The notes under the pieces are model-generated. The model did not search any database. It was not told the DNA's origin and saw only the letters and a program-made list of their open reading frames with translations. DNA of 64,000 bases, from assembly GCF_009914755.1 (NCBI RefSeq), contig NC_060926.1. The stretch is one strand, 5' to 3'. A program made the position numbers and the translations under genes. Shown piece by piece: positions 47,326 through 58,931 of this stretch. This DNA comes from the human T2T-CHM13v2.0 reference genome, Homo sapiens. Every line of letters starts with the position of its first letter. Positions within the stretch are counted from its first letter, which is position 1.

Positions 47326-49773
47326 TTACCGAACGACAAGGCAGGAGACGCACAGTTTGGAGGGGCCGATGCAATCATCATGGCAGAAAGCGCCACAGCC
47401 TTTGCACATGATCATGGCTTTCAAGCGGCAGTAACATTTCGAAGGCGTGCCCTCTATGCTGTTCTCTTCGGAGAACGCCTGAACAGGAATGGTCTGGCCA
47501 TGGCTGCTGGGATTCATAGCTTGGCTAGCAGGGATGGTAGTGACAGTCACTGAAAATGACATGACATCACCTACATTGCTAGATACCTGGCTACCTGGTA
47601 CAGCAGAGTTATGGTCCATGTCAGATGAGGTGGAGACATTGATCATGCCTCTATAGCTTGGCCCTATCTGGGTGGGGCTTCCATACAACTTCGGGGTTTG
47701 CAGGGGTGGAAGGAGTAGGGGCTGGTGGGTGGGGCTGTCTGCAGGCAGAGGAAGAACAGTAGAACTGAAAAGCTCGGGGCTGCTACGGATTGCCTTACCT
47801 CTCACTGCATGAGCCATCTGCTTCTGTGCTGCCTGAATTAAATCTCTGGCTAGGGTCTTTTCATCAAATGTTTGGCCTCTAGTGAACAGGTAATTCTCCT
47901 TACTTAAAGTGGTTTGCTCATTCAATGGTATCTCAGCCTTCACATTCTTGCTAGCTAAGCAATCACTGGTAGATAGAGTTTCCCTGCTGTGAGGTCCTGA
48001 ACTTGTGTCACCCTTGCCAGCACTCTGGGAAACCTGGGGCTCCTCTTTCACTGTGACAGATTCCTGCTCATCACCAGTACTTTCCTCATCAGTGTCATCT
48101 TCTTTGCTGCTGCTACTCTCTCCTGTTGCATTTTTACAGTCTGTATATCCCATTTTCAAGGCTTCAGTGGGGCTGCTTAGACAAAAACGATCTTCAGGGT
48201 TTACAGAATGGGTCCTCCTAAAGCTCTCTGAGCCCCGGCCGTAGGTAGAAATATTCAGTAAGTAGTGCCCTGCCATTGCAGGTTTGGATGTCCTTCTGCC
48301 AGCAAAACCCAGCATGAACCTCTGGCTTGTGGAGATGTCTTCCAGCTGGAAACCTGAGTGAGCGAAGTTGAACTGTGAGGGCGGCACAACTGAGAGAAGA
48401 TTCTGCCTCCGAACCCTCTGAATGAGAGTCTGAAGGATCTGATCTTGGGTTGCTTTACTTAGTCCTTCGTGGTATTGGTGTGTGTCAATGCTGGAGTCCC
48501 TCAGCTCCTTAGCTGAAAAGAGCTGAAGGGGCCTTGGAACCTGGGGGAGCTGCTTACTTTGCAAGGTTTTGCCCAGCTGCTGCTGCGTAGCTGGATGGGA
48601 CTGTCTCTCATTAACTTCCTCTCTGGTGCTATTTTCTGTTGTGTTGGTAGCTATGAGCGCTCCCATCCCCCTTTCCTCTTTTGCAGTCAGTGGAACCGTT
48701 TTCATTTCAACTTTGGTGAGAGGTTTAGGCAGAATTTGCTCCATGGGAACATCTTTGCCTTGAAGCAGCTGAGTCACTAAAGGATTATTAGCAGGGATAC
48801 TAGAGGTTGGTCTTAAAGTGGGTCCATTCATGTTTAAAGAAGTTCCTGGGGTTTTAAGGCTAGAAGCTGCTGGCAAAGTGCTCGAGGGTGGAGCTGATCC
48901 AGCAGGTGCTGTAGTTGCACTGACCTGGGGTACAGGAAGCTTTTCTAAAGTGGCTGTGGTCAATAAAGATGTTAAAGGGGAGGGAGTTACAGCCACTGGC
49001 ACACTAGCATCTGTCTTTGATGAGGCTGAAGGGTTAGGTATATTCTTACTAGGACCTGCTTTGAGCTCAACTGTGCCATCAGCTGCACAATGAACAGGTG
49101 AGGCACCTGAGATTAGAGCAGGACCTGTTGGAGAAGGTGCTTTCTCCTGTCTGCAACTACTGGGCCCTTGTGGATGGCTGACAGAGGCCACTGTGGCTGT
49201 TGCTCTGGTGGGGTTCAGTTTTTCATTATCCAATTTCTCTATGTGGGCTGGTGATGGGACACTTGTGCATGCTCCACTGACGGCAGGTGTTGGAGGCACT
49301 GGGGGGGTTTGCTGTAGTTGTGCTCCAGAGACACTATGAGGCTGTGCCTGGCTTGGGGTGGTCTTGGTCTCAGACTGGGGCTGAGTCTCTGGACCACAGG
49401 GTAAAAGCTCTCTCGTACCTCCCCTGCTTCCAGTTCCTGCCAGTTCCAGTGTGGGGCCCTTTCCAGTTTCACTGACTCTGTCTGAGCCTGGACTGCCTCC
49501 TCTAGCAGTCTGCCCTTCACCACCCTCTCCTGGACCTTGTCCACCCCCTGGGCCAGGTCCTGGAATGGTCCCTCCAACTGAGGCGGCTGCAGCAGCTGCG
49601 GCGGCAGCGGCAGCTGCTGCCCTCTGTGCTTTGACCAGTTGGGCTTTTGCTTTGATGTCTGCAAGAGTTCTGGCTCCTGTTCTGTTAGGACTAGTGATGG
49701 AGACTGGAAAACGAGCCCTGGGAGAGACCTGCGATGGATGAAACGGCATGGGGGAGATTCTGGAGACCGGGAT
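47326..49773 (-). CDS. ASXL2: ASXL2 last coding exon (815 aa + TAA)
   Basis: Lies within ORF 47326-49851. Acceptor ttctttcag|ATC. Contains IPVSRI...[13 protein letters not shown] (ASXM1), poly-Ala, LVTQLL and the C-terminal PHD finger, ending LVVR*. Confidence 0.97.
47341..47436 (-). other. ASXL2: ASXL C-terminal atypical PHD zinc finger
   Basis: [32 protein letters not shown], the family signature. Confidence 0.95.
48763..48780 (-). other. ASXL2: LVxxLL nuclear-receptor box (LVTQLL) in ASXM2
   Basis: Translation [11 protein letters not shown]. Confidence 0.85.
49239..49727 (-). CDS. Overlapping +1-frame 'TF' (transframe) ORF of ASXL2, 161 codons after the shift codon, with an EHNY motif
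   Basis: The +1 frame is open from the shift site ([27 protein letters not shown]...[10 protein letters not shown]...HHQPT*) and contains no AUG. Matches the ASXL2-TF described bioinformatically (recalled: Dinan, Atkins & Firth 2017). Confidence 0.7.
49582..49620 (-). repeat. ASXL2: Coding poly-alanine tract (13 Ala, mixed GCN codons)
   Basis: 39 nt of GCA/GCT/GCC codons. Confidence 0.95.
49723..49730 (-). promoter_or_regulatory. Candidate -2 programmed ribosomal frameshift site AG_GUC_UCU
   Basis: Zero-frame codons CAG GTC TCT fit the RG_GUC_UCU / RG_GUU_UUU pattern of arterivirus nsp2 -2 PRF sites. A -2 slip enters the open TF frame. Confidence 0.6.
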
Positions 49774-50234
49774 CTGAAAGAAGTAGAGGGGAAAAAAACA
49801 ACAGAGCTTAGTTTTCATTTGTAAGAATAACAAAACTTCATTAGCCCTCACATTTTAAAAACAGATGAACACTACAGTACCTGTGACAAACATGGGTGGT
49901 CTATGGCCGAGAGGCCAAACCTTGGAGACAGCAATACTAGTTTGTCTCTAGGGTCCTTGCATCCACTTTTTCTATTGGTGCCAAAGACGACTGCTTCCAC
50001 TCTCACCCCAAATCCCCACACCTCTTTTCCTATCTCAACTCCCTCCTAATGCCACTATTACAAGTGCTTATTATGATACAAAGTTTTCTATGGTATTTGC
50101 ATTTTTAAAAAGTGTATTTATGTTTGAGAAAGAAGAGAAAAGCAAGCAAGCCAGCCACCCATACCACTACTGTCTTTTAGTTCTTAGCTTTACTACCAAG
50201 GTCCAGGGGAAAATACTTGCTCTTCTCTGTTCCA

Positions 50235-58825: not shown

Positions 58826-58931
58826 CTCTGCCCATAGTAGCTTTCAAAGAATTGTTCTTTCCATGGCTCCACTTTTTTCTCCTTCTCAATCTCTTGTCGA
58901 ATTCTCACCTGCATCTCAGGTGTAAACTCAC
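58826..58931 (-). CDS. ASXL2: ASXL2 coding exon (106 nt), C-terminal part of DEUBAD
   Basis: Acceptor acattgcag|GT and donor CAGAG|gtaat. Translates (G)[34 protein letters not shown](S). Counting back from a recalled 1435-aa length puts the K of WKEQ at K370, the known monoubiquitination site. Confidence 0.95.

What the first reader, a model, noticed from the sequence alone, without database searches (positions are those of the whole stretch)
49239..58931. Second route into TF: skipping the 718-nt penultimate exon fuses DEUBAD directly to the transframe ORF
Seen: the upstream exon ends ...GGG CAG AG| and the last exon starts ATC CCG. Joining them gives AGA TCC CGG TCT CCA GAA..., which is the TF frame, open for 177 codons to the stop at 49239-49241. 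That stop lies in the last exon, so exon-junction-dependent NMD would not be triggered. Inference: a ~558-aa DEUBAD-EHNY isoform could arise by splicing alone. This alternative must also be excluded before TF peptides are attributed to frameshifting.
Basis: partly seen in the sequence, partly recalled or inferred. Interest (0 to 1): 0.82.

Follow-up and report, generated by a model that had tools for sequence, protein, structure and literature searches.

The report
ASXL2 exon-12 skip reaches TF frame
Leaving out the 718-base second-to-last exon of human ASXL2 would put the known hidden "TF" reading frame in frame, but nothing shows that cells make this transcript, so it is a useful control rather than a discovery.

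Summary
Exon 11 (58931-58826) ends in two bases of a codon. Exon 12 (55705-54988) is 718 nt, so its length mod 3 is 1. Joining exon 11 to exon 13 (from 49773) reads the +1 frame for 177 codons, through EHNY, to TAG 49241-49239, which lies 532 nt inside the last exon.

That frame is the TF ORF published in 2017 (PMC5644247). The relation is not special to ASXL2. ASXL1 exon 12 (634 nt) and ASXL3 exon 12 (1957 nt) are also mod 3 = 1. Skipping in ASXL1 also lands in TF (128 codons, EHNY). In ASXL3, which has no TF, it hits a stop after 10 codons. Conservation of exon length mod 3 is therefore forced by the main frame and tests nothing.

I found no evidence for the isoform:
- 0 of 3 database models that link TF to upstream exons skip exon 12.
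- No paper found reports the skip.
- Exon 12 has strong splice sites.
- The conserved ASXL1 shift site lies inside exon 12.

A 2026 preprint favours alternative splicing in general but names no event. RNA-seq junctions could not be queried here. The idea is legitimate, cheap to test and unproven. Interest 0.35.

The parts
58826..58931 (-). ASXL2 exon 11 (106 nt). It is the last DEUBAD/ASXH exon and ends in phase 2 (..CAG AG|). Its donor is GAG|GTAATA.
   Evidence: Pfam ASXH profile positions 96-130 of 130.
54988..55705 (-). ASXL2 exon 12 (718 nt, mod 3 = 1), the exon proposed to be skipped. The acceptor has a long pyrimidine tract. The donor AAG|GTAAGA matches the consensus at 8 of 9 positions.
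   Evidence: No Pfam family matched its translation.
49239..49772 (-). TF (+1/-2 frame) reading of the 5' end of exon 13: 177 codons plus TAG (49241-49239). This is the frame that a skip transcript would read.
   Evidence: (stop-to-stop ORF 49239-49814, 191 aa).
49723..49729 (-). G_GUC_UCU heptamer, the -2 frameshift site proposed in 2017. It lies 44 nt into exon 13.
   Evidence: PMC5644247.
49314..49325 (-). EHNY in the TF frame, a match to the HCF-1-binding motif [D/E]HxY.
   Evidence: Motif assignment from PMC5644247.
49774..58825 (-). The 9052-nt span that a skip transcript would splice out as one intron: intron 11 (3120 nt), exon 12 and intron 12 (5214 nt). It has GT at 58825-58824 and AG at 49775-49774.

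Best explanation
This is a true frame relation inside an already described dual-coding region, not a demonstrated isoform.

ASXL2 exon 12 sits between a phase-2 and a phase-0 intron, so it is 718 nt (mod 3 = 1). If it is left out, ribosomes coming from exon 11 read exon 13 one base forward. That is the TF ORF of Dinan, Atkins and Firth (2017). Translation would then end at TAG 49241-49239, within the last exon.

The product would be a 558-aa protein: the N-terminal part with a complete DEUBAD, then 177 TF residues including EHNY. It would lack the exon-12 region, ASXM and the PHD finger.

The relation follows from intron phases that all three ASXL paralogues share, combined with TF lying in the +1 frame.

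I judge that exon-12 skipping occurs at most as rare splicing noise. TF, if translated, is more probably reached from mRNA that contains exon 12, by frameshifting at the conserved heptamer.

Shown here: frames, lengths, splice dinucleotides, domain limit, the paralogue comparison. Inferred: low abundance of the skip form, and the route actually used.
For: - Frames and lengths.
- Same exon-12 phase in ASXL1 (634 nt) and ASXL3 (1957 nt). ASXL1 skip gives TF (128 codons, EHNY). ASXL3 skip gives a stop after 10 codons.
- Exon 12 is well defined by its splice sites, read against the recalled splice-site consensus: acceptor aatatttcttttttcccctttttag| and donor AAG|GTAAGA. The exon 11 donor GAG|GTAATA is weaker.
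- The ASXL1 site UCC_UUU_CGU lies inside exon 12, 81 nt before its end. It is conserved in 199 of 200 species (PMC5644247) and 98 of 99 aligned sequences (PMC11451614). A skip transcript would not contain it.
- The PLEKHM2 preprint reports experimental evidence of +1 frameshifting at a conserved site and searches for the motif YCC_UUU_CG in other human genes. It expects low-level shifting at the other occurrences, ASXL1 included (PMC11451614, passages).
- The RefSeq isoforms of 2017 do not vary in or after exon 12.
- Of 23 distinct TF-matching database records, 3 reach upstream exons (P0013, P0015, P0027). All 3 keep exon 12 sequence.
- No paper found reports the skip.
Against: - No RNA-seq junction resource could be queried, so low abundance is inferred, not measured.
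- Frameshifting in ASXL1 was still called 'not experimentally validated' in 2025.
- The arterivirus -2 shift, the model for ASXL2, needs viral nsp1beta together with PCBP (PMC5644247 Background). Cells lack nsp1beta.
- Tress et al. 2026 (passages) argue that alternative splicing plus gene duplication is more parsimonious than two unrelated frameshift mechanisms. My finding that one and the same skip gives TF in both ASXL1 and ASXL2 fits that argument.
- Both proposed shift sites lie within 81 nt of the exon 12/13 junction. A splicing route would explain this and frameshifting would not. This is a post hoc observation, roughly 6% by chance.
- Exon 12 is long (718 nt) and flanked by 3.1 and 5.2 kb introns. 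From general knowledge of exon definition, that arrangement is more prone to skipping.
- The protein libraries searched are mostly metagenomic, so they are weak evidence about vertebrate isoforms.
Confidence: 0.6

Rival explanations
1. Exon-12 skipping is the real, ancestral and selected route to TF in both ASXL1 and ASXL2. It would be a regulated cassette-exon event inherited from the pre-duplication gene. It would make a short DEUBAD-plus-HCF-1-motif protein. The 'shift sites' would be conserved for other reasons, such as dual coding or splicing control.
For: - The same skip gives the TF frame with EHNY in both paralogues, so one mechanism replaces two unrelated frameshift types.
- Tress et al. 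2026 favour splicing plus duplication.
- In ASXL2, zero-frame third positions of the heptamer are TF second positions. Selection on a translated TF residue string would therefore also freeze the heptamer (reasoned).
- TF starts next to the exon 13 acceptor in both genes.
- The stop in the last exon spares the transcript from junction-dependent NMD.
- The Pfam DEUBAD ends exactly at the end of exon 11.
Against: - The isoform is unannotated in RefSeq 2017 and described as unannotated with no splicing evidence in 2026.
- 0 of 3 linked database models skip exon 12.
- Exon 12 has strong splice sites.
- The ASXL1 UCC_UUU_CGU site and the start of synonymous constraint lie in exon 12, outside any skip product.
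- The frame match has a prior of about 1/2 and is inherited, so the two genes are not independent.
Confidence: 0.15
2. TF is reached by a different splice: the normal exon 12 donor (phase 0) joined to an acceptor inside exon 13, at an offset that is 1 mod 3.
For: - Two gene models use such routes. Camel ASXL1 (P0027) joins the whole of exon 12 to GCAG|ACA inside exon 13. Squirrel ASXL2 (P0015) joins exon 12 sequence to TF at EQEPELL.
- ASXL2 has the homologous GCAG (new exon start 49658), with CTAAC 26 nt upstream.
- ASXL2 also has an AG at new exon start 49703, with 15 of 20 pyrimidines before it.
Against: - Both models are unverified computational predictions. Dinan et al. dismissed such hits as mis-annotation.
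- The GCAG is also present in ASXL3, which has no TF.
- 28 AG positions with the right phase occur in the first 420 nt of ASXL2 exon 13, so candidates are cheap.
- The canonical acceptor is strong.
Confidence: 0.08
3. The ASXL2 TF frame is not translated at a meaningful level by any route. Its openness and conservation would reflect constraints on the main frame or on DNA/RNA elements.
For: - Synonymous constraint in ASXL2 is weaker than in ASXL1 (obs/exp 0.68-0.86 against 0.33-0.55; PMC5644247 Table 1).
- The peptide support cited is for ASXL1 only.
- Ribosome profiling was uninformative.
- RefSeq marks an enhancer at 48970-49470 that overlaps the TF 3' end (hub table).
Against: - EH[N/S]Y is present in all TF sequences analysed although the zero-frame residues vary.
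- Tress et al. report selection in both frames for ASXL1 and ASXL2.
- The TF ORF is kept from shark to mammals.
Confidence: 0.07

Closest known systems
ASXL1/ASXL2 TF overlapping ORF with proposed +1 / -2 programmed ribosomal frameshifting (Dinan, Atkins and Firth 2017, PMC5644247; results, passages and reviewer exchange read)
   Same: Same ORF, same frame, same stop, same EHNY motif. The heptamer G_GUC_UCU is at 49729-49723. The NMD argument (stop in the last exon) is also the same.
   Different: The paper reaches TF by frameshifting on full-length mRNA, giving a product of about 89 kDa that includes exon 12. The finding reaches TF by omitting exon 12, giving 558 aa. The paper rejects splicing only in general, by blastp of TF against nr and by listing annotated isoforms. 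The text never contains 'exon 12'.
Alternatively spliced dual-coding terminal exons (Tress et al. 2026 preprint, 10.64898/2026.05.28.727796; sections 20 and 21 and passages read)
   Same: A frame-changing splice event upstream makes the last exon code in two frames and yields a different C-terminus. The preprint lists ASXL1 and ASXL2 among regions under selection in two frames and prefers splicing plus duplication.
   Different: [quoted passage not shown] The members of that class have annotated transcripts. This one has none.
PLEKHM2 +1 frameshifting at a conserved +1 PRF site, with YCC_UUU_CG as the searched motif (PMC11451614; passages read)
   Same: A vertebrate cellular gene with a conserved overlapping frame. 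Its motif is the one found in ASXL1 exon 12.
   Different: It was tested experimentally. ASXL2 has a different heptamer and no experimental test.
Disease-associated C-terminally truncated ASXL proteins that escape NMD (Shashi-Pena and Bohring-Opitz syndromes, myeloid neoplasia; PMC13542418 and PMC5644247, passages)
   Same: Proteins that keep the DEUBAD and lose the C-terminal half, made from transcripts whose stop lies in the last two exons.
   Different: Those arise from mutations. The hypothetical skip form would be wild-type, shorter (it also lacks the exon 12 region) and would end in the EHNY-bearing TF tail.

Membership tests
Alternatively spliced dual-coding terminal exon (frame-shifting cassette-exon skip) | Cassette exon length is not a multiple of 3 and the exon is flanked by canonical GT-AG introns | tested here: met
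   718 nt, mod 3 = 1. GT and AG are present at all four boundaries.
Alternatively spliced dual-coding terminal exon (frame-shifting cassette-exon skip) | The alternative frame is open from the acceptor to a stop in the last exon | tested here: met
   177 codons to TAG 49241-49239, which lies 532 nt inside exon 13.
Alternatively spliced dual-coding terminal exon (frame-shifting cassette-exon skip) | The skip junction is observed in transcripts or annotated | not testable with these tools
   No RNA-seq or EST resource was available. Indirect evidence is negative. RefSeq 2017 isoforms keep exon 12. The frame is 'unannotated', with no splicing evidence. 0 of 3 linked database models skip exon 12.
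Alternatively spliced dual-coding terminal exon (frame-shifting cassette-exon skip) | The alternative frame is under purifying selection | not tested
   Taken from print: PMC5644247 Table 1 and the dN/dS statement in the Tress preprint.
Arterivirus-type -2 programmed frameshift site | RG_GUC_UCU heptamer in the zero frame, followed by an open -2/+1 frame | tested here: met
   AG_GTC_TCT at 49730-49723, with the first G of the heptamer as a third codon base. It is followed by about 161-163 open codons.
Arterivirus-type -2 programmed frameshift site | A C-rich element about 10 nt downstream, bound by nsp1beta plus PCBP | tested here: inconclusive
   The downstream sequence is pyrimidine-rich (..CTCGTTTTCCAGTCTCC..). 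I did not score it against the viral motif, whose exact form I only recall. The viral trans-activator is absent from cells (PMC5644247 Background).
Arterivirus-type -2 programmed frameshift site | Measured frameshifting | not testable with these tools
   The passages seen report none. The hypothesis is described as 'suspected'. ASXL1 is described as 'not experimentally validated'.
HCF-1-binding motif (HBM, [D/E]HxY) | The motif is present in the translated frame | tested here: met
   EHNY at TF residues 150-153. Binding was not tested.
ASXH / DEUBAD domain (Pfam PF13919) | The domain would be complete in the skip product | tested here: met
   The exon 11 peptide matches profile positions 96-130 of 130 (E = 3e-4, 21.3 bits, below the 25.8 cut-off because it is a fragment). 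P0013 matches positions 74-130. The earlier part of the domain lies in exons outside or at the edge of the window and was not scanned.

The most novel reading that the evidence does not exclude
Skipping of exon 12 is the ancestral way into TF, inherited by both ASXL1 and ASXL2 from the pre-duplication gene. On this reading, vertebrates make a compact PR-DUB cofactor by regulated splicing. It would carry the HARE-HTH and DEUBAD domains fused to an HCF-1-binding tail. The two textbook-candidate cellular frameshift sites would be by-products of dual coding or of splicing control.
Probability: 0.12. Interest if true: 0.75.

Novelty: new member of a known kind. Interest (0 to 1): 0.35.

Why it matters
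ASXL1 and ASXL2 are among the very few vertebrate cellular genes proposed to use programmed frameshifting. Nine years on, the route into TF is still untested and now disputed.

The exon-12 skip is a concrete, falsifiable splicing route. One junction query and two peptides would test it. It applies to both paralogues.

If it were real, it would remove two candidate frameshift cases. It would also define a natural short ASXL form that resembles the truncated, gain-of-function proteins of Shashi-Pena and Bohring-Opitz syndromes and myeloid neoplasia, but carries an HCF-1 motif.

If it is absent, as I expect, the frameshifting hypothesis loses one rival. Either way, TF-internal peptides alone must not be credited to frameshifting.

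Tried and rejected
They could show whether the synonymous constraint in ASXL2 starts at the exon 13 acceptor or at the heptamer.
- TF peptide against 1.84 billion representatives: 11 hits. One (P0012) is a repeat protein with only a short weak match. Most others are ORF calls on genomic DNA that read in from the intron (for example P0005, P0007), so they say nothing about splicing.
- TF peptide against the 5.8-billion set: 'longer' gave 1 hit, P0015; 'near' gave 15 hits. P0019 looks like a normally spliced exon 12-13 mRNA read in the +1 frame.
- ASXL1 TF against the same set, 'longer': 1 hit, P0027.
- My regular expression for a direct exon 11-TF junction flagged P0027. On inspection that match is the normal ASXL1 exon 11-12 junction, so I rejected it.
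- Search for a retrocopy lacking exon 12: the exon 11 peptide finds only ASXL1, ASXL2 and ASXL3 in the genome.
- Pfam on TF, on the exon 12 translation and on the start of exon 13: no family.
- Literature searches for ASXL2 exon-12 skipping: nothing relevant. A Snrpb preprint reports exon 5 skipping in mouse Asxl2. A cardiac paper reports an Asxl2 splicing change without naming the exon in the text seen. Koh et al. 2016 concerns ASXL1 exons 1-4.
- 'Ji et al. 2020', the source of the ASXL1 TF peptides, could not be identified from the preprint text, so I could not check which peptides were seen.
- One paper reading failed on a search term that was too short and was dropped.
- I did not attempt quantitative splice-site scoring because no model tables were at hand. 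Only consensus matches are given.
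Full report
**What is in the sequence**

ASXL2 runs on the minus strand.
- Exon 11 (58931-58826, 106 nt) ends ...GGG CAG AG followed by gtaat.
- Exon 12 (55705-54988) is 718 nt. It is preceded by a long pyrimidine tract ending in tag and followed by gtaaga.
- Exon 13 begins ATC CCG GTC TCC at 49773, after a strong acceptor.

A script that joined exon 11 to exon 13 from the window file gave the junction codon AGA. It then read 177 sense codons and reached TAG at 49241-49239. The direct translation of 49772-49239 is 177 residues and contains EHNY at residues 150-153, which is 49325-49314. 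The stop lies 532 nt inside the last exon.

The total of 558 aa (380 + 1 + 177) follows from the annotated coding spans and the 1435-codon CDS (PMC5644247 Fig. 1 legend). Exons 1-9 lie outside the window and I did not read them.

The exon 11 peptide matches positions 96-130 of the 130-position Pfam ASXH profile. The Pfam DEUBAD therefore ends exactly where exon 11 ends.

**What the frame is**

It is the TF ORF described by Dinan, Atkins and Firth in 2017 (PMC5644247). I read that paper's results, its background passages and the reviewer exchange.

They proposed -2 frameshifting at RG_GUC_UCU. In the window that heptamer sits at 49729-49723, only 44 nt into exon 13.

They dismissed splicing in general terms. 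They ran blastp of TF against nr and listed RefSeq isoforms, which were identical from about 370 aa upstream of the shift site onward. The text never contains the words 'exon 12'.

Later papers call the frameshifting 'suspected' (PMC10235951) and, for ASXL1, 'not experimentally validated' (PMC11451614).

A 2026 preprint by Tress and colleagues (sections 20 and 21 and passages) makes four relevant statements:
- PeptideAtlas holds peptides for the ASXL1 alternative frame.
- Both ASXL1 and ASXL2 regions are under selection in two frames.
- Alternative splicing plus gene duplication is nevertheless called the most parsimonious origin.

The preprint names no splicing event, and 'skipp' occurs 0 times. 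In the library I could search, the specific exon-12-skip route is not in print.

**Is the coincidence meaningful?**

The window's own genome could be searched, so I located the paralogues.
- ASXL1 exon 12 is 634 nt and ASXL3 exon 12 is 1957 nt. Both are mod 3 = 1, with exon 11 at 106 nt in all three genes.
- Skipping exon 12 in ASXL1 also enters its TF frame. It reads 128 codons after the junction codon, keeps EHNY and ends at the TF stop.
- In ASXL3, which has no TF, the same skip meets a stop after 10 codons.

Three conclusions follow.
1. It is seen even in the paralogue without TF, so it tests nothing.
2. The match between skip frame and TF frame has a prior of about one half. It is inherited, so the two genes do not count as independent.
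3. The match does give substance to the parsimony argument of the 2026 preprint. One event would serve both genes, whereas frameshifting needs a +1 site in ASXL1 and a -2 site in ASXL2.

The 15 TF codons that only a skip transcript would translate (49772-49728) cannot close. The zero-frame residues [15 protein letters not shown], as encoded here, allow no +1 stop. Their openness in the 10 orthologous records that reach this stretch (P0005, P0007, P0009, P0010, P0013, P0014, P0016, P0017, P0019, P0025) is therefore uninformative.

**Evidence against the skip as the main route**

- Exon 12 has a near-consensus donor (AAG|GTAAGA) and a long pyrimidine tract, judged against the recalled splice-site consensus. 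The exon 11 donor (GAG|GTAATA) is weaker.
- In ASXL1, the conserved UCC_UUU_CGU lies inside exon 12, 81 nt before its end. It is conserved in 199 of 200 species and 98 of 99 aligned sequences. Dinan et al. place the start of synonymous constraint there. A skip product would not contain that stretch.
- The PLEKHM2 preprint reports experimental evidence of +1 frameshifting at its conserved site and searches human genes for the motif YCC_UUU_CG. It expects low-level shifting at the other occurrences, ASXL1 included.
- Searches with the TF peptides returned 23 distinct records. Most are ORF calls on short genomic contigs. Three reach upstream coding exons:
  - P0013 runs exon 11, then exon 12, then changes frame about 8 codons before the end of exon 12.
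  - P0015, a squirrel ASXL2 model, joins exon 12 sequence to TF at EQEPELL.
  - P0027, a camel ASXL1 model, joins the whole of exon 12 to an internal acceptor in exon 13.
  - None of the three skips exon 12.

These libraries are poor in vertebrate isoforms, so this is weak evidence.

**Evidence that keeps the skip alive**

- Frameshifting is unproven.
- The arterivirus model for ASXL2 needs a viral protein.
- Both shift sites sit within 81 nt of the exon 12/13 junction.
- In ASXL2, the third codon positions of the heptamer are second positions of TF codons. Selection on a translated TF would therefore conserve the heptamer without any shifting.
- Exon 12 is long and sits between introns of 3.1 and 5.2 kb.

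**Other routes seen**

With the normal exon 12 donor, any acceptor inside exon 13 at an offset of 1 mod 3 also gives TF. The first 420 nt of exon 13 hold 28 such AG positions. Two stand out:
- New exon start 49703, with 15 of 20 pyrimidines upstream.
- New exon start 49658. It is homologous to the site in the camel ASXL1 model and has CTAAC 26 nt upstream. It is also present in ASXL3, which has no TF.

These also need junction data.

**Verdict**

The arithmetic is right and the caution about crediting TF peptides to frameshifting is well taken. The isoform itself is hypothetical.

I give 0.6 to the reading that the skip is at most noise and that TF is reached from exon-12-containing mRNA. I give 0.15 to the skip being the selected route. 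The remainder goes to internal acceptors or to no translation at all.

The decisive data were out of reach: RNA-seq and long-read junction counts, route-specific peptides, and a cDNA-versus-minigene comparison. They may show where the constraint in ASXL2 begins.

Noticed in passing
window 55054-55048, 49768-49762, 49729-49723 (minus strand): There are three in-frame G_GUC_UCN heptamers (..TCA..TCC..TCT) within 112 nt of mRNA around the exon 12/13 junction. They are the only 3 GGTCTC in the 3369 nt of coding sequence in the window. All lie inside the TF-frame ORF, which in normal mRNA opens 41 codons before the junction. The first sits just after the codons homologous to the ASXL1 shift site (QQPFQ against RQSFR; my own reading).
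   Followed up: partly
L013 (G000 C20:34157500-34160500): exon 11 at 240-345, exon 12 at 644-1277, exon 13 from 1792: ASXL1 exon 12 is 634 nt (mod 3 = 1). Skipping it also enters the ASXL1 TF frame (128 codons, EHNY kept). The UCC_UUU_CGU site lies in exon 12, 81 nt before its end. The TF frame is open 85 codons upstream of it in normal mRNA.
   Followed up: yes
L012 (G000 C18:33925900-33935400): exon 12 at 4317-6273, exon 13 from 8718: ASXL3 exon 12 is 1957 nt (mod 3 = 1). A skip gives a stop after 10 codons, so ASXL3 has the same intron phases without a TF frame.
   Followed up: yes
protein P0013 (433 aa, unnamed library record): This is a non-mammalian-looking ASXL2-like record. It reads exon 11 and exon 12 in the main frame and then the TF frame (LEAGE and EHSY present). 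The frame change falls just after a QSFR motif near the end of exon 12. That is the position and residue string of the ASXL1 shift site. It could hint that an ASXL1-type site exists in some ASXL2 orthologues, or it could be an indel or annotation artefact.
   Followed up: partly
window 49660-49658 and 49705-49703 (minus strand); proteins P0027, P0015: The camel ASXL1 and squirrel ASXL2 gene models reach TF through acceptors inside exon 13. ASXL2 has the homologous GCAG|ACA (new exon start 49658), with CTAAC 26 nt upstream. It also has a pyrimidine-rich ..ttttccag|TCT acceptor-like site (new exon start 49703) directly downstream of the heptamer.
   Followed up: partly
window 48970-49470: The RefSeq 'enhancer' feature in the hub table overlaps the 3' part of TF, including EHNY (49325-49314). 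A DNA-level element could add to the synonymous constraint there.
   Followed up: no
PMC8225741 (passages): Domain mapping with ASXL1 constructs found residues 600-700 crucial for HCF-1 binding. That stretch of cDNA also encodes the TF-frame EHNY region. Whether the effect runs through the zero frame or through TF was not addressed in the passages seen.
   Followed up: no
protein P0019 (219 aa, unnamed library record): This is an ORF call on what looks like a normally spliced mammalian ASXL2 transcript, read in the +1 frame across the exon 12/13 junction. It shows the TF frame open about 55 codons upstream of exon 13 in that species too.
   Followed up: no
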